Shown here: one piece after another, positions 1,887-37,837 of the stretch
How positions within the stretch are numbered: position 1 is the stretch's first letter
Layout: every line of letters begins with the position of its first letter
Virus record (IMG/VR): IMGVR_UViG_3300021062_000015
Coordinates: 1 to 61,979 of that record
DNA from: a virus
Taxonomy: Duplodnaviria > Caudoviricetes
Length of the DNA: 61,979 bases
Strand: one strand, 5' to 3'
Position numbers and translations under genes: made by a program
The notes under the pieces: generated by a model
Told to the model about the DNA's origin: nothing
Database searches by the model: none
The model's input: the letters and a program-made list of their open reading frames with translations, nothing else

Positions 1887-2043
1887 TTTGTGATAAACAG
1901 TATCACAAAAGCAAGTCCTTCCTTAGTTTACTATAGTCTATTATAGAGGAGGAAGGTGGTGCGCTGTACAGGACTCGAACCTGTGACCCCCACCATGTCA
2001 AGGTGGATTTCCCAGAGGGAGTATCACAAGAATCGTATCACAA
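1887..2043. repeat. Integrase arm-type binding sites of attP
   Basis: GTATCACAA at 1900, 2021 and 2035 plus inverted TTTGTGATA at 1887-1895, on both sides of the tRNA-derived core. Confidence 0.75.
1957..2006 (-). other. attP core: 3' half of tRNA-Val(GAC)
   Basis: Minus strand reads CCACC-TTGACAT-GGTGG anticodon arm, ACAGG-TTCGAGT-CCTGT T arm, ACAGCGC-A-CCA; no D arm or 5' acceptor strand. Confidence 0.9.
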
Positions 2044-15699: not shown

Positions 15700-17787
15700 T
15701 TAAGCTTGTCCTGTAACTTTCAGGCTTAGGGACATCTCGCGCAGCCCCCAGCCGGTTAACTGCGTTACCGCTCGGAAGATGAATTTGATCTGCTTGCCTC
15801 GAGCTGGAAGATGTCGCTTGAAAGATCGTTCCGTGGCTACATTGATTCGAAATTTCGCCGCAATCGAAGTCGATTCATCAGTATAAACTTCCACGTACAG
15901 ATACCCCATCGAGTTCTTGATAAAGGTTCCTTTGAGGAAAAAGATACTCTTGTAAAGGTCAGGCTCTCCAAAATCCATCCAACCGGTTTCATAGACTCCA
16001 TACCACCCGCCAATCACATACTTATCTCCGGCAGCCACCGTCACCGCATCCGTCAAATCTTCAGTCTGCGCCGAGGAGCTTTGCGTCCCTACGATCATCT
16101 TAGCCCCTTTTACTGTCGTAGAGGTATAAACGATTGCGAGTTTTCCTTTGGAATTCGATCCAGGGCTGATCTCACCGGCTACGCTTGTGAGTTCACTCAA
16201 ACTTGAGGAAGGGAAGGTATCGTTAGCTAAGGAAGCCGAGTTTTCATAATCATCCACGATATAGGCTTTCCCAAGCGTATCGACGCCGACATGGAAAGAG
16301 CGTGTATTATCTCCGATCTCAGTTACGGCCGTAATTCGAGGAGGCACTTTCTCGGTCCATTCCCCTGTGTAATCGTCGTACACGTCCACAACATACCGCA
16401 TCGCTCCCAGAGAGCATCCCGAAGCGGGCCGATGGAGCTCGTAGAACCCTTCCTTGCGATCATAGCGAGCAAAGGCAAACTCCATCAGGTTCATGTTGTA
16501 CCGACTTTGCTTCGCAAATCGGTTACGCATCTTTTCGGAGACACATCGGGTCGAGTTCCCGTCAAAAGCGTACACCTGCATATCCGTCCCCATATAGAGG
16601 AGAAATCCATCTCGATCTTCCTTGATCGTCTTATCGGAGAGCGTTCCGCACTTGGCCCGAGTCCTCTTTCTCTGAGAAATCAGAGGATCAAAGTACCAAA
16701 TCGTTTCCTTGAGCCATGCGTATATCTTATTTCCATGCTCCCGAAGAGCAGTGATTTCTTCCTGGACCCCACGGTCAGCATGGTCTCCGGCGATTCCCAC
16801 ATCGAATTTAAAGGCAGGCTTCCAGGATTCAGATTTTACAAGGCCCGTCGTACTCAGATCAGCGTAGTACACCCGCGTTTTCAGCCCAAAGATCGAATAA
16901 CTCACCCCTGATTCAGTGGATCCCTTGTAAGCCGTCGCAAGAGTCAGAGTCGTCCCGCTGATTGCGGTGATGCCATATCTCGGTCCTCCAGCACGTTGGA
17001 AATAAAAAGGGGCTTCCGCATTTCTTGTATACAGTTCAGGAGGAGGCGCCACCGTGAGTTGCACGGTCGTTGAGTCAAAGGTCACATTCGCCGTTCCCTC
17101 ATTAAAAGGCCTCGCTCCACCCCAAAAGATTCGTGTAGCTGTCTTAGCTACGTACTTGCATGGGGGAGGGCGATAATTCGTGTAGGAGACTGCAGATCCC
17201 AAAGCACTATCAGCCTGGGTCAGTTGGTAGGTCCCGCTCACGTTGTCCACCGTGCGATCCAGAAGCAGCGTTGCAGGCACTCCATTGGCGTTGCGATAGA
17301 TCCGGATCTTATCGAAGCGCGAATTACTTGAAGCTACCACCGTCACAGCAAGGCTTTGGTTGGCGAGAACCTTTACCGTAGGCGCGGTCGCAAAAGGGCA
17401 TGTCTCAAAGTCCCTTGCCGAATCATAATACGTATAGAGAGCCGTGTAGCTTCCCGTCAGTCCCGTCCCACCTCCGGCTGCGATCGTAGGCACGGGCGCT
17501 GCATCGGCCCCTGCTTCACGAATCGTTGTCCCGCTGATGATCTTATTATGGTCCCACCCATTGAGCAAATAAGTCTCTCCGTTGACTGTCAGAGCGCGAT
17601 AAGGCGCTCCAGAGGCGAGACCCGAGATATCGGTCGTAGAAGCGCTCTGGGAAGAGAAATTTGGTCGATCCCCAAGATCTTCAATCCCAAAGATTCCGAG
17701 GCAGAGGTTTGCATAGAGGCGATCAATCACCGCCATCAGCCGAAGATTTCCAATCGTAGCTATCCGCAGAACTGCATCTGAGTTCAT
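15700..17787 (-). CDS. Tail nozzle / tubular protein B-like (P22 gp10-type stabilisation protein)
   Basis: 695 aa beta-rich; C-terminal YETGWMDFGEPDLYK...RGKQIKFIF pattern. Confidence 0.65.
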   Translation of the reverse strand: MNSDAVLRIATIGNLRLMAVIDRLYANLCLGIFGIEDLGDRPNFSSQSASTTDISGLASGAPYRALTVNGETYLLNGWDHNKIISGTTIREAGADAAPVPTIAAGGGTGLTGSYTALYTYYDSARDFETCPFATAPTVKVLANQSLAVTVVASSNSRFDKIRIYRNANGVPATLLLDRTVDNVSGTYQLTQADSALGSAVSYTNYRPPPCKYVAKTATRIFWGGARPFNEGTANVTFDSTTVQLTVAPPPELYTRNAEAPFYFQRAGGPRYGITAISGTTLTLATAYKGSTESGVSYSIFGLKTRVYYADLSTTGLVKSESWKPAFKFDVGIAGDHADRGVQEEITALREHGNKIYAWLKETIWYFDPLISQRKRTRAKCGTLSDKTIKEDRDGFLLYMGTDMQVYAFDGNSTRCVSEKMRNRFAKQSRYNMNLMEFAFARYDRKEGFYELHRPASGCSLGAMRYVVDVYDDYTGEWTEKVPPRITAVTEIGDNTRSFHVGVDTLGKAYIVDDYENSASLANDTFPSSSLSELTSVAGEISPGSNSKGKLAIVYTSTTVKGAKMIVGTQSSSAQTEDLTDAVTVAAGDKYVIGGWYGVYETGWMDFGEPDLYKSIFFLKGTFIKNSMGYLYVEVYTDESTSIAAKFRINVATERSFKRHLPARGKQIKFIFRAVTQLTGWGLREMSLSLKVTGQA

Positions 17788-17790
17788 GTA

Positions 17791-17871
17791 TTACAAAAAG
17801 TGAGGAGCCAAAAGCACGCATACACAGCCAATCAGTAAAGCCCCGATGAGAATGAGTTGAATCGCTTCCAT
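17791..17871 (-). CDS. 26-aa hydrophobic membrane peptide
   Basis: MEAIQLILIGALLIGCVCVLLAPHFL exactly fills the intergenic gap. Confidence 0.5.
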   Translation of the reverse strand: MEAIQLILIGALLIGCVCVLLAPHFL

Positions 17872-17872
17872 A

Positions 17873-18502
17873 TTAGTAAGAGATGTGTTGGAGCATCCAA
17901 TTGGTCGACATATAGAGGAAGGAGGCCGATCCACGCCCTGTAAAGTTCGTGTCACCTATCCCCAAGAGATCGAGTTGGTTGGTTGTTCCAGAAAGTGCGT
18001 TTTGATGCATAAACCTCACGTTTGTAGAGGTGTTGTTAATCACATAGAGAAGCTGGCCATCGCGTCCGCTTGAGAACCCCGTAAAAACGATATTTGTCCC
18101 AGTCGTGTTCGTAATCCAAAGGATAGAAACATTGGCTACCGAATAGTTGTCATTTGTCACCGCCGTGCTGAATCCAGCCGAAGCGTAGGCAAACCGCACA
18201 TCTTGAGTCACCGCCAGCGTTCCGCGCACCGTCGTATTACTGAGAATCGAAGTCCCGTTGTTAGTTTGCGTATAGCCTGCAGCAATCGTCACATTATTAC
18301 TGAACATGGCGGAGTTGGTATGGATCACCTGGTTAATCACGTTCGATCCGTAGAACACGATTGAATTATTTGTATTGATCAGCACCGATTGCGTTCTCGT
18401 CCCGACCGGCACCTGGCCAAACACCATCGAAAGAGGTAAAGGCAGGAAAATCCCGATCACCAGGATCCACATACAAATTTCCATCAAAGTCAGTTTTTTC
18501 AT
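17873..18502 (-). CDS. Signal-peptide-bearing, TN-rich virion fibre/spike-like protein
   Basis: MKK + hydrophobic core + VFG|Q; 10 Thr-Asn dipeptides; C-terminal FTGFSSGRDGQLLYVIN motif resembling phage fibre domains. Confidence 0.6.
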   Translation of the reverse strand: MKKLTLMEICMWILVIGIFLPLPLSMVFGQVPVGTRTQSVLINTNNSIVFYGSNVINQVIHTNSAMFSNNVTIAAGYTQTNNGTSILSNTTVRGTLAVTQDVRFAYASAGFSTAVTNDNYSVANVSILWITNTTGTNIVFTGFSSGRDGQLLYVINNTSTNVRFMHQNALSGTTNQLDLLGIGDTNFTGRGSASFLYMSTNWMLQHISY

Positions 18503-18511
18503 AAAATCCTT

Positions 18512-19099
18512 CTAAGCAATGGTCACAGCGTAGAGGCCAAGTCCGTTATCCGCCTGGAGCTTCCACTTGTTTCCGTTGGAATCGGTAAAGACCGGCCCAA
18601 ACCCAGAGGCGAAAGCCTGGTCGCTCGTATACCGCGTCGTGTAAAAAGGCACTCTCCCATGCTTCTCATAGAAGTAGTTCATTGCTTTATCGTCGGCACC
18701 AATCTGCGTATACGTGTTATTGATCGTATCCTTAAACATCATGTACTGGCCCGCCGTGAGCACCAGATTGGCCGAGATCGTAGCTCCAGAGTAACTCACC
18801 GTATTGTCTGGAGAGCTATTGGTGGAAAAGTCAGGCGTCGCATTCCACCACTCCCCATTGGGTGCTTGGATGAGGAGTCGAGCCCCTTCATCGAAGAGAT
18901 AGTCCACGTTATTAACGAAGCCGAAATCTAAAGCGGTTCCATTACAGGTCAGGCTATTCCAGGCGCCGAAGACAGAGATCCCACCCAAAGGCCGGAGCAC
19001 AAAGTTCTTAGCTTCACGCGCCATCGCCACTCCGAGGTTGGAGGATTCCGTAATCGTGTTGATCCCACGAAACTGAGCTATTTTTACATCTTCAAGCAT
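18512..19099 (-). CDS. Tail-associated structural protein
   Basis: FRGINT...AREAKNF N-terminus resembles nozzle-protein N-termini; synteny. Confidence 0.5.
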   Translation of the reverse strand: MLEDVKIAQFRGINTITESSNLGVAMAREAKNFVLRPLGGISVFGAWNSLTCNGTALDFGFVNNVDYLFDEGARLLIQAPNGEWWNATPDFSTNSSPDNTVSYSGATISANLVLTAGQYMMFKDTINNTYTQIGADDKAMNYFYEKHGRVPFYTTRYTSDQAFASGFGPVFTDSNGNKWKLQADNGLGLYAVTIA

Positions 19100-19104
19100 A
19101 GGGG

Positions 19105-20058
19105 TTATTGCAACACGCTCGAGGGGTAGAAAGGTTGCACTTCACTCGGTTCTTGGTACTCGTCTTTGAGCTTAGCTAAGTGGTAAGTGTAAGTGTCCCG
19201 CAGCGTCTTCTTTTCGCTTTCGGATAACTCGAAACCGGAGAATTCCGTCATCATCAGCTTGGATAAGGGCAGGAGAACGGTTTGATGAAATTCTTCAGGA
19301 ATCTCAGATACCGAACTTGTCGCACTCAGAGTCGAAGGCTTCTTCCAGCCATCGAAAGAAAGCGCATACGCTTGATCTGGGAACGGGTAGACGTTAATTA
19401 AGCGCCGACTGATATTGCTAGAATCCTGGATCTGTCCCCAAGTCGTGCAAAAGGTCGGTTGACTCACATCGGGAGTAGCCACCACGCTGATGCCAGCTTT
19501 CAGCCAGAACCCATAATCCGTCCCATCGAGCCCGAGATAACCTTGCTCTTGGTCAAAGCTTTCCTGGTCAAAAAAGGCGAGCACATGATGGCCAGCGAGC
19601 TTCATCGATCGAGGTTTAATCGATCCACAATCTGTAGGAGCTAGCACTCCATCGAAATACATCGTGAAAGAGGCCGCGCTATTGGTCGCCGCAAGAATGG
19701 GTTCGGTAAAAGTAAGGACCGATCCAGCGTAACTTGCTACACGCAGAGGAAATCCATTACCAGAGATCACCACATGTCCGCCGATCCAGGTATCGTCAGG
19801 GGTTTGGCCGGTTACCGTCCCAGTCGTCCCGAGCTTGGTGATATTGATCGTTCCCGTTGCCGATGCCTTTAGGAGAACGGAGAACTTCTTCCTACGGAAA
19901 GAGTACTGCCCTTCATTTAGGATACTGTTATGGGCTGCCTGGATCTTATTCACGATATACGTGCGCAACGAGGTCGAGGCCGTGATTACGCCATCGGTAT
20001 CCAAGAGGCCCATCATCGCCAAAATATCTGTTTCAATTTCCAGCCGAGTCATAATCAT
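19105..20058 (-). CDS. Head-tail adaptor / tubular protein A-like
   Basis: MTRLEIETDI start, INVYPFPDQAY and SEIPEEFH motifs. Confidence 0.7.
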   Translation of the reverse strand: MIMTRLEIETDILAMMGLLDTDGVITASTSLRTYIVNKIQAAHNSILNEGQYSFRRKKFSVLLKASATGTINITKLGTTGTVTGQTPDDTWIGGHVVISGNGFPLRVASYAGSVLTFTEPILAATNSAASFTMYFDGVLAPTDCGSIKPRSMKLAGHHVLAFFDQESFDQEQGYLGLDGTDYGFWLKAGISVVATPDVSQPTFCTTWGQIQDSSNISRRLINVYPFPDQAYALSFDGWKKPSTLSATSSVSEIPEEFHQTVLLPLSKLMMTEFSGFELSESEKKTLRDTYTYHLAKLKDEYQEPSEVQPFYPSSVLQ

Positions 20059-20222
20059 CCTTCTCTGGAGGTTTCACAGGTTCACAAATCATTCGCACTC
20101 CCTTGGCTTCACGTTCAGCCTTGATGCACCAACTGCAATCCTCCTGGAATCCATAGAGCCGATGTCTACGGCAGGGTTGCCGTCGTGGTTCATTTCCCAC
20201 CTGTTTCTCTTCTCCGTGCATA

Positions 20223-20657
20223 TCAAATGAGCGCCCATCGCCACTCCAGTGAGACGTTCGTATTGATAGGAATCCCGAGCTCCCGAGCTACACGCGGGAA
20301 CATGTCTAGGCCCGCACCGTTAGAAATAAAAATCGTCTTTTTCGTCCCATCAGGGTTGGGGACCGTAGGCAACTCATCGGAGTCGAGTCTCACCTTGCAG
20401 GGTTTACCCTTAAAGATTTCAGCGCGTGGCCGCTCGGTTCCGAACACATACGCATCGTCATCGATGCAGAAAGGGCCAATATCCACCACTTGCGCAAAAG
20501 TCGTTCGATCACCGTAGCGTAATTGCACCCAACGATGTCGGGCCTTCGAGCTAGGCAGGGCGATTCCAGGGAAATGCTCTCCAAGCCAGGGACTCCAGGC
20601 AAGAACCTGCTCCTCACAATGCGTGGCAAACACCCTGCACCATTCCGTTCCGTTCAT
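20223..20657 (-). CDS. Putative endolysin, RlpA/double-psi-beta-barrel lytic transglycosylase-like
   Basis: AQVVDIGP and GLDMFPRVARELGI match the two DPBB Asp motifs; in the lysis cassette. Confidence 0.6.
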   Translation of the reverse strand: MNGTEWCRVFATHCEEQVLAWSPWLGEHFPGIALPSSKARHRWVQLRYGDRTTFAQVVDIGPFCIDDDAYVFGTERPRAEIFKGKPCKVRLDSDELPTVPNPDGTKKTIFISNGAGLDMFPRVARELGIPINTNVSLEWRWALI

Positions 20658-21085
20658 AACCCAAGACCCTCCTTCGCCTTACTCCACAAATCATCAGGAT
20701 CACGCAGTTCCTTCTGCCACCGATTCAAAGTGATGAAGTATTCCAAATACTGCGCTTCAATATGGTAAAGCTGGTTCCAATACATATCCATAAAGTCCCA
20801 CACACCGTATCCAGGCTGCAGATCAACTCCGTACTCTTTCTTGAATTGCACCCGATACTTTCCGATCAAAGTGTTATACTTATCCCGAGCATTGGGAGTG
20901 ATAATCGCGCCCTTCACCTCACCACGAGAGTTGCGCGTATAGCGGATAAACCCGCTGTTATAGGCGTCGTATTGTCGTGGCGTCGAAGAATCGTAACTGT
21001 AAGCCCCATCCTTGATTGGATCCGGAGTTACAACCGAGCATCCAAGTAAGATCAGGCTTGATAAGATTATTGTAAGTATTTTCAT
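20654..21085 (-). CDS. Lipoprotein, o-spanin candidate
   Basis: Lipobox LLGC after a hydrophobic signal. Confidence 0.6.
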   Translation of the reverse strand: MKILTIILSSLILLGCSVVTPDPIKDGAYSYDSSTPRQYDAYNSGFIRYTRNSRGEVKGAIITPNARDKYNTLIGKYRVQFKKEYGVDLQPGYGVWDFMDMYWNQLYHIEAQYLEYFITLNRWQKELRDPDDLWSKAKEGLGL

Positions 21086-21113
21086 TGAAGTTACTCATCG
21101 GAACTGGTATCAC
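21085..21113 (+). promoter_or_regulatory. Promoter for the second HNH gene (leaderless)
   Basis: TTGAAG-17-TATCAC with extended TG; ATG at 21121, 7 nt later. Confidence 0.45.
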
Positions 21114-21120
21114 CCTTAGA

Positions 21121-21645
21121 ATGAAGATCTGCCCTAAATGTAAAATCGTAAAAGGTGCTAACGAGTTTTACAGAAGCTCCACGACCGCCACAGGGCTCTC
21201 TTCGTGGTGTAAGTCCTGCGATAGAGAAAAGGCCGTAAATTTTAAGAAAAAATTCCCTGAAAAAATAAAGGAGCGACAGAAGAAGTATTACGAAAGCCAC
21301 CAATGGGAGGATTATATAAAGGGGGTTAAATGGAGGAAGGCCAATCCAGAAAAGGCACTCGCAATACGTCAACGTTATAGACAAAAAAATAAGCTTAAAA
21401 TTCTTGAATACGAAAAATTGAATTACAACAAAATAAGAGCCCGCAAGCGCCTGAATACGGCTATTAAAAGAGGAAAGATTCCGAGCCCAAAAACTTTTCC
21501 ATGCGCTAAATGCGGAGGAAAATCCGACCAATATCATCATCACATGGGATATGATAAAGAGAACTGGCTTAATGCCATTCCCGTTTGCATTCAATGCCAC
21601 AACGCATTTCATGGTAAAATATCAGTTAATCGTCACTTAGCTTAA
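21121..21645 (+). CDS. Free-standing HNH-type endonuclease, inverted in the lysis cassette
   Basis: KICPKC...EFY...GLSSWCKSC zinc finger, basic helical repeats, CAKCG...HHHMGY...VCIQCH core; AT-rich. Confidence 0.85.
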   Translation: MKICPKCKIVKGANEFYRSSTTATGLSSWCKSCDREKAVNFKKKFPEKIKERQKKYYESHQWEDYIKGVKWRKANPEKALAIRQRYRQKNKLKILEYEKLNYNKIRARKRLNTAIKRGKIPSPKTFPCAKCGGKSDQYHHHMGYDKENWLNAIPVCIQCHNAFHGKISVNRHLA

Positions 21646-21834
21646 GTTTTTCCTAACAGCATCTTCATCGGCATTTCGGATAGCTTTGGCATTTTTATCG
21701 TCCTCGTTATTTTTCTTTTGCGCTTCGTCTCGTCGCTTCATTTCCGGCGTGTTATTCAGATCCGACCTCTTGGAAGCGAAACCAAACACCGCCCCAATCG
21801 CTCCAAAAAATCCCTTAATGCTCTCCCAAATCAC
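21637..21834 (-). CDS. Small membrane-anchored coiled-coil protein, i-spanin candidate
   Basis: N-terminal hydrophobic helix followed by a charged helix. Confidence 0.5.
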   Translation of the reverse strand: MIWESIKGFFGAIGAVFGFASKRSDLNNTPEMKRRDEAQKKNNEDDKNAKAIRNADEDAVRKNLS

Positions 21835-22319
21835 GGAACCTCCACTTGAGGTTGAACATCATCAAGAATCGAAGTTGCCGCGTTCTCACAACCGCGGGCG
21901 AGAGATTCGAGCACCTGTAGAGCAAGCTTTGGATCACCCTTTACCTTCGCGTAATACCCCTCATAAAAACCGCTCACCACCTTGGCTAGAGAAGCGAATT
22001 GGCTCTTCTTCCCGCCGAAAACAATAATGGTGCTTTGAATCTCTTCCACCGAGGGCACCTTCCCGCCGCTCAGAGACCGGATCCCGTGGGCGATCGCATA
22101 CATATAGTTGGCCACTTCCTGTCGCTCCTTCGGGTCTTCAATTGAAGAGATAGCGATCACACTCACCGCCTGGGCCACAGCCGGAAGAAAGTCCACCGAC
22201 TCCTCCACCACTTGTCGGGGAGTCAGGTTCCCGCACCCAGAAAACACAGAGAACGTCGCAAAGATTCCAAAGGCAACCATCACTCCGCTAAACCAACGAA
22301 CTACAGTTTTAAAATTCAT
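21831..22319 (-). CDS. Lipoprotein
   Basis: Hydrophobic signal then FSGC lipobox. Confidence 0.65.
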   Translation of the reverse strand: MNFKTVVRWFSGVMVAFGIFATFSVFSGCGNLTPRQVVEESVDFLPAVAQAVSVIAISSIEDPKERQEVANYMYAIAHGIRSLSGGKVPSVEEIQSTIIVFGGKKSQFASLAKVVSGFYEGYYAKVKGDPKLALQVLESLARGCENAATSILDDVQPQVEVP

Positions 22320-22564
22320 TTGCTCTCCTTCTTAATAATTTCATCCGTCCTTACCTGGTGATTGAGGCTATGAGCTACCACTTCTCTCAGAAACAGAATC
22401 GAAGCCGCCGCAAACCCCGCATCGAAATACCCGCTTTTCAGAACGAGATACTCGAAAGCGAGAAACACGATCAAAGTGGCAAGGCAAATCACCGTACTCC
22501 GAGATCGCATGGGGTTCGGAAGAATCGGCCCTTTTACCGGAGTAATCGTAGAGTCAGGGCTCAT
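22316..22564 (-). CDS. Holin candidate
   Basis: 82 aa, two hydrophobic helices, charged C-terminus. Confidence 0.55.
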   Translation of the reverse strand: MSPDSTITPVKGPILPNPMRSRSTVICLATLIVFLAFEYLVLKSGYFDAGFAAASILFLREVVAHSLNHQVRTDEIIKKESK

Positions 22565-22908
22565 TGGATAAGCTTCCCGTTTTTATCGATCTCGATAAGG
22601 AAAGGATCTTTCTTCTTAATCCCAACCTCATCCACAGAAACCCGCCGCATATTCCTCTCCTGCAAATCCCGCAACCACTTAATATCGGCTTCCATCCGGG
22701 CCAGTCGCACATCGATCGATCGCAGAGAGTCATCCGCTCCTTTTCCACCTGCTTGCAACTCTGAGATATCCGAAGCGTGATTCTTCAACGTCTCCTCGAG
22801 TCGCACCTGCCACTTGCCCAGGTTGTTAGCCGACACTGCGTAGGCCACCAAAAAGGCAAGCACCAAACTGATAAGCTTATCCCAGTTATTGAGCAGGAAG
22901 CGTTTCAC
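22561..22908 (-). CDS. Single-TM coiled-coil lysis-cassette protein
   Basis: TM helix then IDVRLARMEADIKWL coiled coil. Confidence 0.55.
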   Translation of the reverse strand: MKRFLLNNWDKLISLVLAFLVAYAVSANNLGKWQVRLEETLKNHASDISELQAGGKGADDSLRSIDVRLARMEADIKWLRDLQERNMRRVSVDEVGIKKKDPFLIEIDKNGKLIQ

Positions 22909-22913
22909 GTTAA

Positions 22914-23129
22914 TTAGACTTCACCTGGATCAGGAGCTCGGTATTCGCAGGAAAAGAAATTCTGATGAGAATCAAAATTCCAGGGATTAATTGCGGTATT
23001 TCGAACGGGCTCCAAAGGAATCCATCCGTCTCGAACCGCCTGATTATGGAGAAGAATAAAGGCTTCTTTGTCTGGGTGAGTTATGGCTTTTCGATGCTTG
23101 AATGTGTTGTATTCTTTAGGTACTTGCAT
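22914..23129 (-). CDS. Hypothetical protein
   Basis: GAGGA RBS; fits the operon. Confidence 0.55.
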   Translation of the reverse strand: MQVPKEYNTFKHRKAITHPDKEAFILLHNQAVRDGWIPLEPVRNTAINPWNFDSHQNFFSCEYRAPDPGEV

Positions 23130-23142
23130 AGTTGTTCCTCTG

Positions 23143-24069
23143 TTAAAGTCCGGTTCTCAACCAAGAATTGGTATCGATTAAAATATTTCCGTCACCGCTT
23201 ACGATGTTGGTGACACACACGATTCGATTCGTGCTGATAAAGGCCGAGAGATTTACAATGTTAGTCTTGAGCGAACCGCTTCCAATGATTCCCCCTAAAG
23301 ACCATTGATTCGTCTGAGTAAGATCTAGGCTGATGTCGTCGATTCTGACAGTAGCCGTTCCCGTATTCGCAGCTGCCTTGGCCGAAACACTGAAATGGGC
23401 GCGTCGCGCTGAATTAGTCCAAAGCTGATTTAAAGCCGGAGTGATGTTCTGAGAGATATCGTAAGGAGCAATATTCGTTTTCGCATAAATCGTTCCAGCG
23501 ATATCCAACTTTGCTCTTGGGGTTGCAGTTCCAATGCCGATATTTCCATTATTGGCCGACTTATCGATGAAGAGGCGAATATCAGTGTCATAAAAGAAAA
23601 TCGTGTCATCTCCGTTTGAGAAATAATCCTGTCCCATCTGGAATCCATTGGCCGCCCCTTGCCGGAAAAAGAACCGCGTCTGCCCCGTTGCGCTTGTCGA
23701 TTCAATAACGAAAGCAGTATTTCCACCACTCACAGCATGGAAAACCGTGTTTCCAATAACGCCATTTAACAGATCTCCATTTGTGATTTTAAGGCCGTTG
23801 GTAACATAAAGAATCTCCACCACATTCGAACTTCCGAAGAGGTAAGTATTCCCATCGGTGATATGTAAGCCGTTCGTCCCGTAATAAATCCCGTTATTGG
23901 TAATTCCCGAGGTTGTGATAGAGGAGAGGAACTCCGTAGGCGTCGATCCACCCGATGAAAGGTTGGGATTGGTCCCACCACCGCCTTCACGCAAGTTTGT
24001 CCCTTGCCCAAAGGCCAAGATCGCCACTGCCATAAGAACGGCTAAAACAACTGCAGCGCCTTTTTTCAT
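23143..24069 (-). CDS. Signal-peptide-bearing, TN-rich fibre-like protein
   Basis: MKK + hydrophobic + AFG|Q; GNIGIGTATPRAKLDIAG trimeric-fibre motif; 13 Thr-Asn dipeptides. Confidence 0.65.
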   Translation of the reverse strand: MKKGAAVVLAVLMAVAILAFGQGTNLREGGGGTNPNLSSGGSTPTEFLSSITTSGITNNGIYYGTNGLHITDGNTYLFGSSNVVEILYVTNGLKITNGDLLNGVIGNTVFHAVSGGNTAFVIESTSATGQTRFFFRQGAANGFQMGQDYFSNGDDTIFFYDTDIRLFIDKSANNGNIGIGTATPRAKLDIAGTIYAKTNIAPYDISQNITPALNQLWTNSARRAHFSVSAKAAANTGTATVRIDDISLDLTQTNQWSLGGIIGSGSLKTNIVNLSAFISTNRIVCVTNIVSGDGNILIDTNSWLRTGL

Positions 24070-24084
24070 TGAAAAGTCCTTCGT

Positions 24085-24567
24085 TTAATTCCCAAGCGGT
24101 TGGGCTACGATTTCCACCTTGCTTGTCGTCACGATCGAGCTTTTGATCCCCACGCGGAACACGGGGGCCATGCGATTGAAGCGCTCGGGATAAGAGTTCC
24201 CGTTCGTCACGATCATCGTCATCACCCGCGTGTAATAGTCATACCGAAGCTCCCGCCCGCTGATAGAATTAGTCACCGTTACAGGTTCAGACCACCAATT
24301 GGTTTCCGCTGCATCCGTTACCGTCGCCCATTGGAACACCATGTATGCATTCACGTTGGTTTGAGGCACAGTTACCCGCGCTCGCATAAAGACAGCATTA
24401 AATCCATCGAGACCGACAGGGGCCGTATACTCGTAGTCGCTATTCGTCAGCACCATCGACGGGCGAATCGTATCTTCTTTCCCCATGGTGAAGAGTTCGC
24501 CCGCAGCATAAGCAAAACTCAGAAATAACCAGACCACCGCTGCACTCAGAAGAAGTTTATTCTTCAT
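24085..24567 (-). CDS. Signal-peptide-bearing beta-rich virion protein candidate
   Basis: Sec signal ending AYA|A; 5 Thr-Asn; AGGAGA RBS. Confidence 0.6.
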   Translation of the reverse strand: MKNKLLLSAAVVWLFLSFAYAAGELFTMGKEDTIRPSMVLTNSDYEYTAPVGLDGFNAVFMRARVTVPQTNVNAYMVFQWATVTDAAETNWWSEPVTVTNSISGRELRYDYYTRVMTMIVTNGNSYPERFNRMAPVFRVGIKSSIVTTSKVEIVAQPLGN

Positions 24568-24637
24568 ACAGTTCTCCTTCGTAAGAGAGTGGGTAAGAGA
24601 TCATCCTACCCACTCCCAAGTTTTTCGCTTAGCTGGC

Positions 24638-25186
24638 TTAGTCGAGCCAGTAAATCGCCATGCTGCCGTGGTTTGCAGCGGTGCCGTTTTCGATCACGAT
24701 ACCGTTGGTAAACCGCACTGGATGGCGGAAGGTGTTGTTACGAGTGTTCGACAAGGTAGCGGCCGTAAAGGCTCCACCAGTCGACACGCCCGTTTGTCCC
24801 ATGCCAATCGGTCCACCGAATTGATCGGGGATGATCTTCTTGGCATTGGCCGTCGATCCCGCAAGGGAAGGACTGGCAAGCGTCACCTCAGATAGAGATG
24901 CGTTGTAGAAGCTAACCCTCCAGTTAGCAGTCGTAGTATTACCTTCAGAGGCAGACACGATCTCAACGCCTGCAAGCAACCCAGGGCCGCTTACAATCTG
25001 TTGAGTTTGCGCCGTACCGTCGAAGGAGACGACTTTGCTCTTACACCCGGTGAAGAGTTCCACAGCTTTGGTCAAAGCGGCTGGATCACGAGAACCCGTG
25101 CCATCATTGCCAAGTTGTGCCTGTGCGTACGGCAAAGCCAGAAGCATTGCCGCCACCATGATGATGAATTTTTTGATTACGTTCAT
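24638..25186 (-). CDS. Signal-peptide-bearing capsid decoration-like protein
   Basis: Sec signal ending AQA|Q; SGPGLLAGV...PVRFTNGIV pattern; two genes after the MCP. Confidence 0.55.
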   Translation of the reverse strand: MNVIKKFIIMVAAMLLALPYAQAQLGNDGTGSRDPAALTKAVELFTGCKSKVVSFDGTAQTQQIVSGPGLLAGVEIVSASEGNTTTANWRVSFYNASLSEVTLASPSLAGSTANAKKIIPDQFGGPIGMGQTGVSTGGAFTAATLSNTRNNTFRHPVRFTNGIVIENGTAANHGSMAIYWLD

Positions 25187-25188
25187 AA

Positions 25189-25578
25189 TTATTGTCCTTT
25201 CGATCCCTTGGCTTTGCCCTTAGCTTTCGCTTTAGGTTTCACTTCAGGATCTGTTGGTTTGGACTCCGCAGGTGCAGAAGCGGGATTCACTTCCTGCGAA
25301 GGAGTTACTGCAGCCGGAGCTGGTTCTTCCTTCTTGGCAGGAGCTTTCTTGTCATCCTCGATGGTTACAGCGAGGCCAGGCACAAACATTCCAAACGGCT
25401 GAATCTTGTGATTGCTCGTTAAGAGTTTGTCTGCGTCCTCTGCCGACTCCGCCTTGTAAGCGTAAGCGTCGAACTTCTCGTTCCATTGGAACGGATAGCT
25501 CTTCGCATCGATGATGATGTCTCCGATTTCTCCTCGAAATGGATACTCCCGATATAAAACCCAAATTTGCACTTTCAT
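25189..25578 (-). CDS. Head-associated protein with P/A/K-rich tail
   Basis: Directly follows the MCP. Confidence 0.6.
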   Translation of the reverse strand: MKVQIWVLYREYPFRGEIGDIIIDAKSYPFQWNEKFDAYAYKAESAEDADKLLTSNHKIQPFGMFVPGLAVTIEDDKKAPAKKEEPAPAAVTPSQEVNPASAPAESKPTDPEVKPKAKAKGKAKGSKGQ

Positions 25579-25598
25579 AAGTCCTTACCTGTCAGGGG

Positions 25599-27041
25599 TT
25601 ATAAACCTGTTGCCACCTTCGCGATGACGAAGTTAGGGAACTTCCCGTCACGTCGTTGTGCTGGGGTTTGTCCGAAGACAGCTTCCACAGCCGCGCCGTT
25701 TACGAAGTTGTAGTCCTGGTTATCGACTTGCAGCGCTTCACGGCCGGAGCCGCCTTCGCCGTTATTTCCATAACCACGGAGTAACGCATTCGCTCCAGTG
25801 ATGATCACATGGGCATAAGCCACACCCTGCTTGTTACAAGGAACAATGAGGGAGTTAGCGTCATGCTTGCCGTCCGGGTTGGTCGTGCCAGCCACGTTAC
25901 GAGTCACAGCGGTAAGTTTATTACCGTTATTGCCCGTTGAACCTGTGTAGCTGATGATCTCGAACTTGCTTGGGTTGTTGGTCGCACCAGGAAGATCGAT
26001 GATCTTCGCGTAATAGGTATTCGAGTCAGTGACCGCTGAATCACCAGGTAGGAACGTGAAGTCATATCCAGGGAAATCCCGGAAATACTTACGAGTTGTT
26101 CCAGATCCATCCGAACCACCACCATCAATGTCGGTCACTGAGGTGAAGTTCGTGGTCGCTGTTCTCAGCAACGCACGAGGTTCCAGAGGGCTACCGATGG
26201 CGCCGTTCTTTGGATTGTCATGGTCAGGCAAGAAGATTTCATAAGGAGCGATCCCCATGTACGTCTTGTTCGAGAAACACCCCGTAAAGAGCGGGTTTTT
26301 CTCATCTGCCCCGCCTTCGCGAGCGCGTCCCATGAGCTGGGCGTTATTCCATGCCGAATCATTGACCAAGCTTCGCAACACACGGTGCGTCGCCCAGAGA
26401 ATGAAGTAAGGCACTTCATTGCCTTCTTCTCGGGAGATGTTCGCCGGCTTAGCTCCAAGAGTCAGGAGCTTGATCGAAGCATCGCTGAAAAGCCCAGTGC
26501 TCAAGCGATCCGATGTCGTCAAAGCGTCATCTGTCGCCTTAGCTCCAGGGTAGATCAGGTTGTTCGATCGTCCGCTCGCCGTGTAAGCACCGCTTTTAAT
26601 CAAGCGCAGAAGCGCATAGATTTGCTTGCGTCGTGCCATCCAGCGGGAGAGCAACTTCGTGAATTCCATCTTGCGTTTCGCAAAAGTGAATCCTTTGAAG
26701 CGCCGATCGGCAGCCACACCATGTCGCACCCAATCAATTTTGAGCTGATAGGTGTTCAGGTTCAGCTTTTCTTCGTTTCCGATTAGGCTATCGCTTCCGG
26801 TCTGCCCTTCGTCCACGAGTTCGGACCCTACCGTGAAGTTCATGGTTTGAGCCCCACCTACCGAGAGATCATCTTTCTCGATAATCGGCATGTTACTGCC
26901 TTCAGGCCCTTGAAATCGACTCAACCACTCGTTCTCAATCACACCATCCTGCATCGCCTTAGCCCAAAGCTGGGCCACGATGCTGGGTGAAAGCGAACTA
27001 TGGTCATTTAATACCGATGCATTAATTGAGTTTAATGCCAT
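25599..27041 (-). CDS. Major capsid protein (N4 gp56 / DUF4043-like)
   Basis: IIEKDDLSVGG, LIGNEEKL, IDWVRHGV, NPLFTG motifs; GGAGG RBS; follows the scaffold. Confidence 0.85.
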   Translation of the reverse strand: MALNSINASVLNDHSSLSPSIVAQLWAKAMQDGVIENEWLSRFQGPEGSNMPIIEKDDLSVGGAQTMNFTVGSELVDEGQTGSDSLIGNEEKLNLNTYQLKIDWVRHGVAADRRFKGFTFAKRKMEFTKLLSRWMARRKQIYALLRLIKSGAYTASGRSNNLIYPGAKATDDALTTSDRLSTGLFSDASIKLLTLGAKPANISREEGNEVPYFILWATHRVLRSLVNDSAWNNAQLMGRAREGGADEKNPLFTGCFSNKTYMGIAPYEIFLPDHDNPKNGAIGSPLEPRALLRTATTNFTSVTDIDGGGSDGSGTTRKYFRDFPGYDFTFLPGDSAVTDSNTYYAKIIDLPGATNNPSKFEIISYTGSTGNNGNKLTAVTRNVAGTTNPDGKHDANSLIVPCNKQGVAYAHVIITGANALLRGYGNNGEGGSGREALQVDNQDYNFVNGAAVEAVFGQTPAQRRDGKFPNFVIAKVATGL

Positions 27042-30060: not shown

Positions 30061-32255
30061 GCCGCCATCTCCTGAGGAGGAGGCTCCGGTTGAGGTTGTT
30101 GCTGCGCAGGCGCCTGCTGAATAATCTCTTGGATCGTCCCCACAAGCATCATCAGCTCATTCACAACTGATTTCTCAGGCGTTTTATCCATGCCTCCGCC
30201 CTGGATTTGCTGTGCTGCCGCTTGGATCTTGCCCGCCACTTCAGCCAGGAGCGCATCTTGGTTCTGGTTGGCCTGCAATTCTTCCATGGAAGGCAAGATC
30301 GAGTCCGCTTCGATAATCCCAATCGAATTGAGTAATTGAATGAAGAGGTCTCGGAGTCGCACCTGATACTCAGGAGGCGTACCAATCCAAGTTTGGACGA
30401 TCTGCAGAGCTCCCTGGATTGCTTGGGCCCGTTGTTGCTGCCCATACTTGGAGAGCACAATCTTCACGTCAAAGTCGAGTTCTCGGATGTCTTCAGGGTT
30501 GACCCGCGCCACCACCTCATGGAGGCCCTTGTTGTACCGGAACACGCGCACTTGCTCCACGTTCTGTTGAATCAGTCGCACATTACCCGATATTTCGCGC
30601 TCGAAAGACCCCTGGCATCGTCGGATGAACATCCGGTAGAGTTTATTACCTTCTTCGATGATGCTCTTAGTTCCCGTCGCCGTCGCCGTACTGGGCAGGC
30701 TCGAAACGTCGCCCTGTGCCGCGTTGGAGATCCCAGTAATCAACTGGATGAGAGACACGAAGAACTGGAAGATCTGCCATTCAAAGGCCTCCATCTGTGG
30801 CATCACGTAGTAACCAAATGAATCCGCCGCGTTTGCACTCTCTTTTAAAAGAGTTTGGTCTCCAGGTTTAATATCGCGGGGCGGAGGCTTTATAAAGTTG
30901 CCTTGCTTCACCCAGGCAAGAGGGTTAGCCGACATGCTCGAGCGGTAATTCACTCGGTTAAAGACCTTATCCACAAAGTCTTGGGCCATCTTCAAGTAAT
31001 CGTAAGGCCCGTAACTCCACCACCTGCCAGGATTTTGGAAGAACCCGTGGACTTCAAATGGAAGCTTGCAATCGGCATACACATTCACGAGGAGCTCGTA
31101 CCACACGATGAGTTTCGTCGATCGCTCCATCAGCACGATGATTTCTTCGACAATCCCATCTCCATCGATGTCGTATTTCAGGTAACATTCAGCGAATTGC
31201 AGGGTTTTAAAGAGTTGATCTTGCGTATCTACTCCCATGATCGATGAGGCCGATTCACCGAGATAGGTCTTGGGCGCCGACTTATTGGCCTTATCCCCCT
31301 CGTTTTCAGTCTTGGAAGTCGCATCGGGTAAACCTTTCAACTTCTGCAAGTTCTCGAGCACCCAGCGGGAGTTCTTAAAAGCTTCTTCGGAGAGATCCCC
31401 ATCCATCGACTGCATCACTTTCTCCATGATTTCGTGCAGTTTCTGGTCAAACACATGGGCGACCACGGGCGATTTCTTGATCTCGCTTACCGTCATGTCA
31501 CACCAAAAGTCTTCAAAAGGGATCAACTCACTCTTTGCGTTGTCGTAATGCGTAATTGAGTCTTTGATCGGCACATCCACATACTCATGATTTGGGGTGA
31601 TCTCAGGCCCCATCATCTCGACGCCTTCAGGATCCAGGAACTTGAGGTAACGCCGATCTCGACCAAGCCCCATGGTGAGAGGGCTGGCTTTCAAAATCAC
31701 TTCAGGGTGTCCTTCCTGCACGGGCTGTCCATCCTGTCCCATCACAGGTCCATCAGGGCCATGCAGTTGCGTCTCGATTCGAGTAAAGTAAGATCGTTCT
31801 ACAGCCCAAGAGCGTTTCTTGATCGCCGTTCCTTCCGTGCAAGTTACCCAAAGCGTTTCACTCCCGCTTTGGCGGAAGTTCATCTGTTCCATGATCTCCC
31901 AGAGCCAATACTTCGTGAATTGATCGGCCGCTTCCTTATCATCCACGTCTTGGGCTTTGGCGATAAAAGGCTGATCGTTAGCCAGTAACTCATCTTCCAC
32001 CTTCGAGGCGTAGGAGGTTGCTACCCCTTTCACAAGTGGCACACCGATATTGGAGAGTTGATAGATCGACCCCGCCTTCGCACGATGGCTAAAGTCATCC
32101 ATATGTTCCTTACGGATCTCTTGCACCCGTTTCACGCGGTCGCGTCGTCCAGCTTCAATCGCCTTCATCCGTTCATCGATGATTGTGGCCAGTCGTTCCA
32201 AACGAAAAGTGTCCAGCACCGGAGGAGCTGCGAGTTTCATCTTCAAAGTCTTCAT
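30057..32255 (-). CDS. Portal protein
   Basis: 732 aa; ECYLKYDIDGDG, ITGISNAAQG, TATGT motifs of podovirus-type portals. Confidence 0.9.
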   Translation of the reverse strand: MKTLKMKLAAPPVLDTFRLERLATIIDERMKAIEAGRRDRVKRVQEIRKEHMDDFSHRAKAGSIYQLSNIGVPLVKGVATSYASKVEDELLANDQPFIAKAQDVDDKEAADQFTKYWLWEIMEQMNFRQSGSETLWVTCTEGTAIKKRSWAVERSYFTRIETQLHGPDGPVMGQDGQPVQEGHPEVILKASPLTMGLGRDRRYLKFLDPEGVEMMGPEITPNHEYVDVPIKDSITHYDNAKSELIPFEDFWCDMTVSEIKKSPVVAHVFDQKLHEIMEKVMQSMDGDLSEEAFKNSRWVLENLQKLKGLPDATSKTENEGDKANKSAPKTYLGESASSIMGVDTQDQLFKTLQFAECYLKYDIDGDGIVEEIIVLMERSTKLIVWYELLVNVYADCKLPFEVHGFFQNPGRWWSYGPYDYLKMAQDFVDKVFNRVNYRSSMSANPLAWVKQGNFIKPPPRDIKPGDQTLLKESANAADSFGYYVMPQMEAFEWQIFQFFVSLIQLITGISNAAQGDVSSLPSTATATGTKSIIEEGNKLYRMFIRRCQGSFEREISGNVRLIQQNVEQVRVFRYNKGLHEVVARVNPEDIRELDFDVKIVLSKYGQQQRAQAIQGALQIVQTWIGTPPEYQVRLRDLFIQLLNSIGIIEADSILPSMEELQANQNQDALLAEVAGKIQAAAQQIQGGGMDKTPEKSVVNELMMLVGTIQEIIQQAPAQQQPQPEPPPQEMAA

Positions 32256-37568: not shown

Positions 37569-37837
37569 TATTGATCCTGCTTTTCTATCTTCCTCACTTT
37601 AAACCACACCCTCTCTATCTTGCTATCAGACTTCGATAGCAAACTCCACTCCCACGACTCTCCAGTTTCCGTATCCAGCAACACAGAAGATTTCTCATCC
37701 TGATCTACCACACTGTAAATCTGATACCGCCCTCTAAACGCAGAATCTGCAGCAGCGTGCCCCTTATCTCCACCGCCAATCAAACTCCCAAAAATAAACA
37801 TGCACACACAAAGAATGCAGATGTTTTGTGTTTTCAT
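37568..37837 (-). CDS. Small exported accessory protein
   Basis: Signal-like N-terminus; GRYQI...LLDTETGESW motif. Confidence 0.65.
   Translation of the reverse strand: MKTQNICILCVCMFIFGSLIGGGDKGHAAADSAFRGRYQIYSVVDQDEKSSVLLDTETGESWEWSLLSKSDSKIERVWFKVRKIEKQDQ

What the first reader, a model, noticed from the sequence alone, without database searches (positions are those of the whole stretch)
17873..25186. Four virion-type proteins carry Sec signal peptides and three are loaded with Thr-Asn dipeptides
Seen: 24638, 24085, 23143 and 17873 all start with classic signal peptides, yet they sit in the head/tail module and three show decoration or fibre motifs. TN counts are 1, 5, 13 and 10, against 3 in the 480-aa MCP and 1 in the 695-aa nozzle. 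17873 also has about 10 N-x-S/T sequons. Established: tailed phages assemble in the cytoplasm, so exported structural parts are unexpected. Inference: these are exported, modified (glycosylated) in the periplasm and added to particles at lysis; alternatively they are surface proteins of the infected cell.
Basis: partly seen in the sequence, partly recalled or inferred. Interest (0 to 1): 0.8.

Follow-up and report, generated by a model that had tools for sequence, protein, structure and literature searches.

The report
Exported fibre-like proteins in phage late operon
A soil phage encodes four proteins with export signals among its head and tail genes, at least two of them built like phage tail fibres, which suggests they work outside the cytoplasm where phage particles are normally assembled.

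Summary
All four ORFs begin with classic Sec/signal-peptidase-I leaders, and each start codon has a Shine-Dalgarno-like motif upstream. TN counts are exactly 1, 5, 13 and 10.

In the last three, TN is the most over-represented dipeptide, 3-4 times the shuffle expectation. So T and N composition does not explain it.

In the 209-aa protein, both the leader and 6 of its 10 TN are conserved in its only two homologues. Only 1 of its 10 N-x-S/T sequons is conserved.

That protein fails as a monomer model but gives a confident homotrimer. The 308-aa protein carries one module of a very large tail-fibre repeat family. In viral contigs that family almost never has a leader (1 of 88 ORFs). In the general protein library it often does (46 of 134).

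Best reading (about 0.5): these are Sec-exported, partly fibre-like trimeric envelope proteins of the infected or lysogenic cell. They resemble Bdellovibrio MAT fibres, and TN is a structural strand-turn motif. Glycosylation and post-lysis attachment to virions have no direct support but are not excluded. A Wzy_C-family membrane protein sits in the same operon.

The four proteins have almost no relatives: two homologues of the 209-aa protein and a shared repeat module in the 308-aa protein. The host is unknown.

The parts
24638..25186 (-). SP182: 182-aa ORF with a predicted signal peptide (codons 1-23, 25118-25186) and cleavage A-Q-A|Q. It has 1 TN. It starts directly after the stop of the 129-aa gene that follows the MCP.
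   Evidence: No Pfam, PHROG, NCBIfam, PDB-sequence or phage-database hit. The ESM Atlas nearest clusters are unnamed viral ones (0.93). The AF2 model of the mature part has pLDDT 47.9.
24085..24567 (-). SP160: 160-aa ORF with a predicted signal peptide (codons 1-21, 24505-24567) and cleavage A-Y-A|A. It has 5 TN against 1.12 expected.
   Evidence: It is an orphan: only itself was found among 5.8 billion proteins by the word-seeded search, and there are no family, PDB or phage-database hits.
23143..24069 (-). SP308: 308-aa ORF with a predicted signal peptide (codons 1-21, 24007-24069) and cleavage A-F-G|Q. It has 13 TN against 3.44 expected.
23470..23727 (-). Residues about 115-200 of SP308: one copy of a tail-fibre repeat module that ends in the motif N-I-G-I-G-T-x-x-P-x-x-K-L-D-I.
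   Evidence: phmmer found 5080 proteins at E<=1e-3, many of them giant proteins with up to 49 matched stretches. Some short members end in the Peptidase_S74 chaperone (2 of 8 scanned). There is a weak tblastn hit to a Roseobacter phage 'tail fiber domain-containing protein' (E 5e-3).
17873..18502 (-). SP209: 209-aa ORF with a predicted signal peptide (codons 1-29, 18416-18502) and cleavage V-F-G|Q. It has 10 TN against 2.97 expected and lies between the 195-aa gene and the 695-aa 'nozzle' candidate.
   Evidence: Two homologues exist (46% and 43% identity). The leader and the mature N-terminus Q-[LV]-[PS]-V-G-T-R are conserved.
18185..18319 (-). SP209 residues 62-106: predicted intertwined three-chain shaft. 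TN recurs at 18-residue spacing (44, 62, 80, then 116).
   Evidence: Continuous confident inter-chain contacts over 62-106 in the trimer model.
17876..18133 (-). SP209 residues 124-209: predicted trimeric globular head.
   Evidence: The interface residues 124-129, 147-157, 178-182, 187-198 and 203-209 are.
20223..22908 (-). Neighbouring block of envelope-directed genes between the SP308 gene and the adaptor gene. It holds a 115-aa signal-anchor protein (22561-22908), an 82-aa one-TM protein (22316-22564), a lipobox protein of 162 aa (21831-22319), a 65-aa protein, a lipobox protein of 143 aa (20654-21085) and a 144-aa protein (20223-20657). It is a probable lysis/envelope cassette, interrupted by a plus-strand gene at 21085-21645.
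   Evidence: The hydrophobicity and lipobox scan is. There are no family hits, so the roles are inferred.
25599..27041 (-). Major capsid protein (context).
   Evidence: PF13252 at 3.1e-12 and phrog_334 at 6.3e-22
19105..20058 (-). Adaptor-like tail protein (context).
   Evidence: phrog_10775 'tail protein' at 2.9e-7. PF24175 SU10_adaptor scores 4.4e-4, below its cut-off.
15700..17787 (-). The name rests on position only.
   Evidence: No Pfam or PHROG hit

Best explanation
The four genes are real late-operon genes of a complete, temperate, very isolated podophage genome of about 61.8 kb. Their products are exported by the Sec pathway and cut by signal peptidase I.

At least two are built like phage fibres. 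SP209 is an intertwined homotrimer with a shaft and a head. SP308 carries one module of the tail-fibre repeat family whose members often end in an S74 chaperone, followed by a separate C-terminal tip.

Because they leave the cytoplasm, they most likely act in the envelope of the infected or lysogenic cell. They would be periplasmic or surface-attached fibre or adhesin-like proteins, analogous to the Sec-exported MAT fibres of Bdellovibrio and to the exported unknown proteins of Porphyromonas phages. They are then not parts assembled into the particle.

The Thr-Asn dipeptides are conserved structural elements of these beta-rich folds: a Thr that ends a strand followed by an Asn that starts the turn or stacks along the fibre. 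They are not glycosylation sites.

What is shown: leaders, start sites, TN excess and TN conservation, predicted trimer, membership in the fibre repeat family. What is inferred: actual export and cleavage, final location, biological role (adhesion, receptor masking or exclusion), and the structural role of TN.
For: Leaders and starts:
- The leaders have a classic n/h/c layout and SD-type 5-mers before all four starts.
- In the SP209 family the leader varies in sequence and length but stays hydrophobic, and the residues just after the cut are invariant. 2 of 32 leader columns are invariant against 59 of 183 mature columns.

Fibre character:
- SP209 as a monomer gives pLDDT 37.
- Three copies of its residues 30-209 give ipSAE 0.90, best of 3 controls 0.00. 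The three runs share at least 94% of contacts, and partner pLDDT is at least 80.
- That mark was reached by 20 of 30 proteins solved as pairs of one chain and by 1 of 23 solved as single chains. These counts hold only roughly here, because my own 3-row alignment was used and three copies were folded, not two.
- No solved structure is related by sequence (0 hits at E<=10).
- SP308 residues 115-200 match 5080 proteins of a fibre repeat family.

Leaders within that family:
- By one crude leader rule, 46 of 134 hits that start with M have a leader (149 examined, 15 not starting with M).
- Only 1 of 88 5'-complete ORFs from viral contigs does (121 ORFs found, 33 truncated at the 5' end).
- So members with leaders are mostly not ordinary phage tail fibres.

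Context:
- Three of the four genes adjoin a block of two lipobox proteins and several membrane proteins. 13 of 101 ORFs have a strongly hydrophobic N-terminus and 2 more a lipobox.
- For scale, a paper on rumen phages reports 0-2 signal peptides per genome in five phages (PMC5723332, passages).

TN:
- It is the top dipeptide in three proteins.
- 6 of 10 TN are invariant in the SP209 family, against 23 of 179 adjacent pairs in general (p = 6e-4).
- It has 18-residue spacing in the predicted shaft.
- It is not enriched in the rest of the proteome (34 observed, 38.8 expected) or in the fibre family at large (1822 observed, 1920.7 expected).

Precedents:
- All 21 MAT fibres have a signal peptide and localise to the cell surface (PMC10769870, passages).
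- Porphyromonas phages carry five unknown genes with Q-rule signal peptides (PMC10367356, passage).
Against: - The genes sit inside the head-to-tail late operon. A sigma-70-type scan found no promoter or strong terminator of their own, although that scan may not fit this host.
- Their GC (0.465-0.536) is like that of their neighbours (mean 0.494, sd 0.031). They therefore do not look like recently acquired morons, and they are probably made together with virion proteins.
- SP209 lies exactly where a podophage tail fibre would be expected. Its invariant mature N-terminus looks like a docking peptide.
- SP182's nearest language-model neighbours are unnamed viral clusters.
- No surface-targeting signal was found: no T9SS C-terminal domain, autotransporter anchor or clear beta-barrel C-terminal signal (C-termini read). 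How a protein that is merely periplasmic would reach the cell surface is therefore open.
- No function is shown. The structural role of TN is an inference, because no confident coordinates were available to me.
- The leader calls come from rules, not from a trained predictor.
Confidence: 0.5

Rival explanations
1. First reader's model. The proteins are exported, mature in the periplasm, and bind to finished particles when lysis mixes periplasm and cytoplasm. SP182, SP160 and SP308 would bind the head and SP209 the tail. Part of virion maturation would then be extracytoplasmic.
For: - Gene positions: three lie directly after the MCP and one lies between the adaptor-region genes and the 695-aa tail protein.
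- They share an operon with structural genes and have matching composition.
- SP209 is a predicted fibre-plus-head trimer whose invariant N-terminus is exposed only after leader cleavage.
- SP182 resembles unnamed viral protein clusters.
- No SP-free tail fibre or receptor-binding protein was identified elsewhere. The 598-, 375-, 270- and 195-aa proteins have no family hits.
Against: - No tailed phage is known to me to use an exported virion part (recalled). Three text searches surfaced none in their listings.
- In viral contigs, fibre-family ORFs almost never carry leaders (1 of 88).
- There is no evidence of binding to capsid or tail.
- Three of the genes border an envelope/lysis block.
Confidence: 0.15
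2. They belong to the lysis or egress machinery. They would be periplasmic accessory proteins, made late, that help to breach the peptidoglycan, outer membrane or surface polysaccharide, or that protect progeny from re-adsorbing to debris.
For: - SP182, SP160 and SP308 lie directly upstream of a block with a signal-anchor coiled-coil protein, a small one-TM protein and two lipobox proteins.
- They sit in the late operon.
Against: - No enzymatic or spanin-like family hit was found for any of them.
- SP209 lies 1.7 kb away from that block, among tail genes.
- A fibre-plus-head trimer is not a known lysis component (recalled).
Confidence: 0.1
3. The hydrophobic N-termini are not cleaved export signals. 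They are membrane-active or buried anchors of proteins that assemble into the virion in the cytoplasm, for example for membrane penetration at infection.
For: - They lie in the structural module.
- SP209 has an unusually long leader of 29 residues with two prolines.
Against: - All four have the full n/h/c layout with small residues at -3/-1.
- The SP209 family leader is poorly conserved in sequence and length (17 to 30 residues) while the mature start is invariant. That is the pattern of a removed signal peptide, not of a structural anchor.
- There is no SD before the internal Met26 of SP209 that could give a leader-less form.
Confidence: 0.08
4. The exported proteins are glycosylated in the periplasm on TN threonines (or asparagines) by the phage's Wzy_C-family membrane protein, which would act as a PglL-like O-oligosaccharyltransferase using host lipid-linked glycans. 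This could apply on top of any of the location models.
For: - A Wzy_C-family protein of 572 aa with about 8 hydrophobic segments lies between the large terminase and portal genes (PF04932, 3.9e-9, 36.9 bits against a cut-off of 31.7).
- PglL-type O-oligosaccharyltransferases belong to the same family as WaaL ligases and often sit next to their targets (PMC3643930, abstract start in the listing only).
- TN is conserved and shared by three unrelated exported proteins.
Against: - No TN sequon is known to me (recalled).
- Known sequons are not enriched, and N-x-S/T sequons are not conserved (1 of 10).
- Prophage-encoded Wzy polymerases used for lysogenic conversion are a documented and simpler reading (PMC13228068, listing and abstract start only).
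- Only Wzy_C matched. No other Pfam family did at E<=0.01, and there was no PDB or phage-database relative.
- No glycosyltransferase was found in the 40 window ORFs put through Pfam.
Confidence: 0.07

Closest known systems
Mosaic adhesive trimer (MAT) fibres of Bdellovibrio bacteriovorus (PMC10769870; passages read)
   Same: They have a Sec signal peptide followed by a trimeric, intertwined, phage-tail-fibre-like beta structure with interchangeable tips, either with the S74 chaperone or without it. They are found on the cell surface. Their capping-loop motif V-G-G/N-pi-x-x-P-x-x-x-L resembles the I-G-I-G-T-x-x-P-x-x-K-L motif of SP308.
   Different: MATs are chromosomal genes of a predator, 600-1100 aa long, and share a conserved N-terminal domain of about 130 aa. 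Here the proteins are 180-290 aa when mature and are encoded in a phage late operon. The motif spacing differs by one residue. No sequence match to the solved MAT tips was found.
Phage tail fibres and spikes with a C-terminal S74 intramolecular chaperone (K1F endosialidase, T5 L-shaped fibre; named in PMC10769870, otherwise recalled)
   Same: The SP308 module belongs to the same repeat family. Short family members end in Peptidase_S74 (2 of 8 scanned). L100's fibre hits PHROG tail-fibre families.
   Different: SP308 has a leader and no S74 domain. In viral contigs, 87 of 88 complete family ORFs lack a leader.
Signal-peptide proteins of unknown function in temperate Porphyromonas gingivalis phages (PMC10367356; passage read)
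   Same: These are phage-encoded Sec substrates of unknown function whose predicted cleavage exposes Gln. Here 3 of the 4 do so, as do both SP209 homologues. They are proposed to modify the host envelope.
   Different: No fibre architecture, TN bias or placement inside the head/tail gene order is described in the passage I read. The host here is unknown.
Lambda Lom and Bor, and T5 Llp
   Same: They are exported or lipid-anchored envelope proteins encoded by phages. Lom lies within the tail-gene region. They act on the cell, not in the virion.
   Different: Lom is an 8-stranded outer-membrane barrel, and Bor and Llp are lipoproteins. They have their own expression signals. None is a fibre-like trimer.

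Membership tests
Sec / signal peptidase I substrates | Positively charged n-region, hydrophobic h-region of 7-15 residues, c-region with small residues at -3 and -1, and no Cys at +1 | tested here: met
   Read from the translations. The hydrophobicity scan gives a 12-residue maximum of 2.68-3.33 for the four. No trained predictor was available.
Sec / signal peptidase I substrates | The leader evolves under physico-chemical constraint only, while the mature start is conserved | tested here: met
   Tested for the SP209 family only: 2 of 32 leader columns invariant against 59 of 183 mature columns. The other three have no homologues to test.
Sec / signal peptidase I substrates | Actual translocation and cleavage | not testable with these tools
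   This needs reporter fusions or N-terminal sequencing.
S74-type phage tail-fibre repeat family (SP308) | Significant sequence match to the repeat module | tested here: met
   5080 proteins at E<=1e-3 and 365 at E<=1e-10. The best stretches fall in residues about 100-210.
S74-type phage tail-fibre repeat family (SP308) | C-terminal Peptidase_S74 intramolecular chaperone | tested here: not met
   No Pfam hit in SP308 at E<=0.01. It would be a non-S74 form.
MAT superfamily (Bdellovibrio) | Signal peptide followed by a conserved N-terminal beta-rich domain of about 130 aa | tested here: inconclusive
   A signal peptide is present. The N-terminal domain could not be compared because no MAT full-length sequence was at hand. 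PDB holds tip fragments only, and they gave no hit.
MAT superfamily (Bdellovibrio) | Capping-loop motif V-G-G/N-pi-x-x-P-x-x-x-L | tested here: inconclusive
   SP308 has I-G-I-G-T-A-T-P-R-A-K-L. It is similar, but Pro and Leu fall one position earlier than in the published motif.
Homotrimeric fibre (SP209) | Confident three-chain model with an intertwined interface that clearly exceeds controls | tested here: met
   ipSAE 0.90 against a best control of 0.00. Partner pLDDT is at least 80, and at least 94% of contacts are shared between runs. The monomer model has pLDDT 37. This is a prediction only.
Trimeric autotransporter adhesins (considered for SP209) | C-terminal YadA-type membrane anchor and YadA-like head or stalk repeats | tested here: not met
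   No Pfam hit at E<=0.01 and no NCBIfam hit at E<=0.1.
C1q/TNF-like head domain (considered for SP308) | Match to PF00386 | tested here: not met
   No Pfam hit. The only link is an ESM Atlas feature neighbour at 0.89, below the tool's own 0.9 bar.
Known bacterial protein-glycosylation substrates | Enrichment or conservation of a known sequon: N-x-S/T, [DE]-x-N-x-[ST], or D-[ST]-[AILVMT] (the last two recalled) | tested here: not met
   N-x-S/T is enriched only in SP209 (10 observed, 5.14 expected), and only 1 of those 10 is conserved. The other two sequons occur 0-1 times per protein, at expectation.
DGR variable protein (considered because of the Asn codons) | Template/variable repeat pair and a reverse transcriptase | tested here: not met
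   No repeat of 30 nt or more pairs with the four genes in that way. The only family that touches them is a 30-nt, 70% match (D17), and the tandem-repeat scan of 17000-26000 found only four short low-copy arrays, none in the four genes. No RT was found among the ORFs scanned.

The most novel reading that the evidence does not exclude
SP209, and perhaps the three proteins after the capsid gene, are genuine virion fibres or decorations that a tailed phage sends through the Sec pathway. They would trim, fold and trimerise in the periplasm, possibly gain pyroglutamate N-termini or be modified at the conserved Thr-Asn sites with help from the phage's Wzy_C-family enzyme, and dock onto particles only at lysis. 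This would be an extracytoplasmic step in tailed-phage morphogenesis.
Probability: 0.12. Interest if true: 0.9.

Novelty: new variant of a known kind. Interest (0 to 1): 0.6.

Why it matters
Tailed phages are taken to build their particles entirely in the cytoplasm. Here a trimeric, tail-fibre-like protein has a conserved cleavable export signal and is encoded between tail genes. Three more exported proteins follow the capsid gene.

There are two main possibilities. Phages may equip the host envelope with fibre-like proteins made alongside virions. That would be a phage counterpart of the MAT fibres of predatory bacteria, with roles in adhesion, receptor masking or exclusion. Or part of a virion may mature outside the cytoplasm. 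Either can be tested directly once a host or an expression system is available.

The shared, conserved Thr-Asn motif in three proteins with no detectable sequence similarity to one another is an unexplained sequence signature. It could mark a structural rule or a modification site.

Tried and rejected
- Relatives of the phage: none were found with the MCP, portal, large terminase, SP308 or the SP209 alignment in viral, metagenome or genome contigs. In the phage database the MCP has one distant hit (27%). SP182, SP160 and SP209 have none. Synteny in relatives therefore could not be checked. The tool that fetches the contigs of the two SP209 homologues is closed.
- Family searches: Pfam, PHROGs and NCBIfam gave nothing for the four proteins. 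PDB sequence searches gave nothing meaningful.
- Paralogy among the four: BLAST all-against-all found no pair among them at E<=1. hhalign probabilities were at or below 1%.
- DNA-level cause of TN: rejected, because the codons vary.
- DGR: rejected.
- Internal start giving a leader-less SP209: there is no SD before Met26.
- Moron signature: the four genes have no deviant GC. The plus-strand gene at 21085-21645 does (0.398).
- Folding: the SP209 monomer (pLDDT 37) and mature SP182 (pLDDT 47.9) gave poor models. The BFVD search with the latter gave no match at E<=0.001, so it was not interpreted.
- Alignment of SP308 with 29 short family members: too scrambled by the repeats to use for folding or for pattern searches.
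- Host: a tRNA 3'-end fragment next to the integrase was searched as an exact 32-mer in genome contigs and gave no match. Gln at +1 in 3 of 4 leaders, and in both homologues, hints at a Bacteroidota-type host (Q-rule; PMC5837995, passages). The SD use by late genes argues the other way (recalled: Bacteroidota rarely use SD). This is left open.
- Sequencing runs: two DNA runs labelled soil metagenome hold the stretch, and both may be its source. No RNA holder is listed.
- Paper supplements were not consulted (closed). Those of PMC10367356 and PMC10769870 may list sequences that bear on the comparisons.

Full report
**Setting**

The window is the whole record. A 126-nt exact repeat joins its two ends (6-131 and 61854-61979), so this is a complete circular assembly of about 61.85 kb.

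The left 39 kb is a minus-strand late arm. In order of transcription it holds:
- the small terminase (PF03592) and a weak large-terminase match;
- a Wzy_C-family membrane protein;
- an SU10-type portal (PF23899, 3.1e-34) and tRNA-Met;
- a scaffold-like protein and the MCP (PF13252, phrog_334);
- a 129-aa protein, then SP182, SP160 and SP308;
- a block of membrane and lipobox proteins;
- an adaptor-like protein and a 195-aa protein;
- SP209, then a 695-aa protein;
- further unknown proteins and a 3067-aa polyvalent protein;
- an integrase.

The right arm carries replication genes. Two runs labelled soil metagenome hold the DNA.

The phage is very isolated. No relatives were found in any contig collection.

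**The observation**

The four N-termini have the n/h/c layout of signal-peptidase-I substrates. None has a second hydrophobic segment. Each start is backed by an AAGGA-type motif. Such motifs occur upstream of 21 of 101 ORFs, against 8% of control windows. The start spacing is tight: 0, 70, 15 and 9 nt from the upstream gene.

TN is 3-4 times over the shuffle expectation in SP160, SP308 and SP209. In each it is the most over-represented dipeptide. NT is not enriched, and the codons vary. In these three proteins 28 of 64 Asn follow a Thr, against 34 of 721 in the other 98 ORFs.

The enrichment is absent from the rest of the proteome and from the fibre family at large. The composition-only refutation therefore fails.

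**Conservation**

Only SP209 has homologues: two, at 46% and 43% identity, both from assembled public runs.

Their leaders differ in sequence and length but remain hydrophobic. All end just before an invariant Q-[LV]-[PS]-V-G-T-R. 2 of 32 leader columns are invariant, against 59 of 183 mature columns.

Six of the ten TN are invariant, against 23 of 179 adjacent pairs in general (p = 6e-4). In contrast, only 1 of the 10 N-x-S/T sequons is kept in both homologues.

**What the proteins are**

*SP308.* Residues about 115-200 are one unit of a very large repeat family. It has 5080 hits at E<=1e-3, and many are giant proteins with dozens of units. Some members end in the S74 chaperone of phage tail fibres.

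I applied one crude leader rule to two samples of this family:
- Library hits: 46 of 134 that start with M have a leader.
- Viral contigs: a pattern scan of IMG/VR gave 121 ORFs, of which 88 are complete at the 5' end. Only one of these (L100) has a leader. It hits PHROG tail-fibre families.

The two samples were drawn differently. Even so, a leader is clearly atypical for a phage-borne member.

*SP209.* As a single chain it gave pLDDT 37. As three copies of residues 30-209 it gave ipSAE 0.90, with a best control of 0.00. Partner pLDDT is at least 80, and at least 94% of contacts are shared between runs.

The tool's calibration is that 20 of 30 proteins solved as pairs of one chain reached the mark, and 1 of 23 solved as single chains did. 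That holds only roughly here, because my own alignment was used and three copies were folded.

Contacts run continuously over residues 62-106 and in patches over 124-209. This indicates an intertwined shaft and a trimeric head. TN recurs every 18 residues through the shaft region. No solved structure is related by sequence, so the pass is unlikely to come from memory.

*SP182 and SP160.* They remain unassigned.

The four proteins are not detectably related to each other.

**Interpretation**

Export is the best-supported step. Given export, the simplest reading is that these are envelope proteins of the infected or lysogenic cell. Sec-exported, phage-fibre-like trimers are established surface proteins in Bdellovibrio (PMC10769870). 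Temperate Porphyromonas phages carry unknown genes with Q-rule signal peptides (PMC10367356).

This genome is rich in such genes. 13 of 101 ORFs have a strongly hydrophobic N-terminus, and two more have a lipobox.

TN is best read as a structural motif: a strand-ending Thr and a turn or ladder Asn. The grounds are that it is periodic in the predicted shaft, often follows a hydrophobic residue, is often followed by G, N or S, and is invariant in homologues. This remains an inference.

**Against that reading**

The genes are embedded in the late operon with matching composition and without obvious signals of their own. SP209 sits where a podophage fibre gene would sit. No leader-free receptor-binding protein was identified. 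No surface-targeting signal was found.

A glycosylation overlay stands at about 0.07. Its only prop is the Wzy_C-family gene in the same operon, and that is more simply a lysogenic-conversion polymerase or ligase (listings only).

**Verdict**

The signature is real, non-random and conserved. The proteins are most likely exported fibre-like envelope proteins, a new variant of known kinds. A small but interesting chance remains that a tailed phage matures part of its virion outside the cytoplasm.

Noticed in passing
window 32252-33970 (-): A 572-aa protein with about 8 hydrophobic segments matches Wzy_C (O-antigen ligase/polymerase family; PF04932, 3.9e-9). It sits between the large terminase and portal genes. 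It has no PDB, phage-database, PHROG or NCBIfam relative. It could be a seroconversion enzyme or a PglL-like oligosaccharyltransferase.
   Followed up: partly
window about 1955-1990 (-), between the integrase (808-1878) and the 3067-aa gene: A tRNA 3' end (T-arm, acceptor strand, CCA) lies next to the integrase. It is a probable attP core. The exact 32-mer was not found in genome contigs.
   Followed up: partly
window 6-131 and 61854-61979: A 126-nt exact direct repeat lies at the two ends, so the assembly is circular and the genome complete.
   Followed up: yes
window 2101-11304 (-): A 3067-aa protein has a Kinase-PolyVal domain (PF18762, 2.5e-13) at residues 1303-1468. It may be an injected polyvalent protein.
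   Followed up: no
window 17791-17871 (-): A 26-codon, wholly hydrophobic mini-ORF fills the gap between SP209 and the 695-aa gene. It starts 2 nt after SP209's stop and ends 3 nt before the next ATG (read).
   Followed up: no
window 21085-21645 (+): This is the only plus-strand gene inside the late arm. Its GC of 0.398 is low against a mean of 0.494, and it has a weak DUF968 match with Cys/His motifs. It looks like an inserted homing-endonuclease-type gene.
   Followed up: partly
window 42162-42261: Four 22-nt-spaced direct repeats (iteron-like) lie just upstream of the DnaB-type helicase gene.
   Followed up: no
window 36900-37837 (-), 49213-49866, 52719-53168 and 54112-54468 (+): Further predicted exported or anchored proteins lie outside the late structural genes. 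They are a 222-aa signal-anchor protein, an 89-aa protein, a 217-aa and a 118-aa leader-bearing protein, and a 149-aa lipobox protein with a weak CBM_4_9 match.
   Followed up: partly
window about 24590-24625 (-): A GC-rich hairpin without a T-run lies in the 70-nt gap between SP182 and SP160 (read). It may be an RNA-processing or stability element.
   Followed up: no
L100 1750-3819 (+): This is the only leader-bearing member among 88 complete fibre-family ORFs from viral contigs. It is 689 aa long, its predicted cleavage exposes Gln, it has PHROG tail-fibre hits, and it has 8 TN against 3.53 expected.
   Followed up: partly
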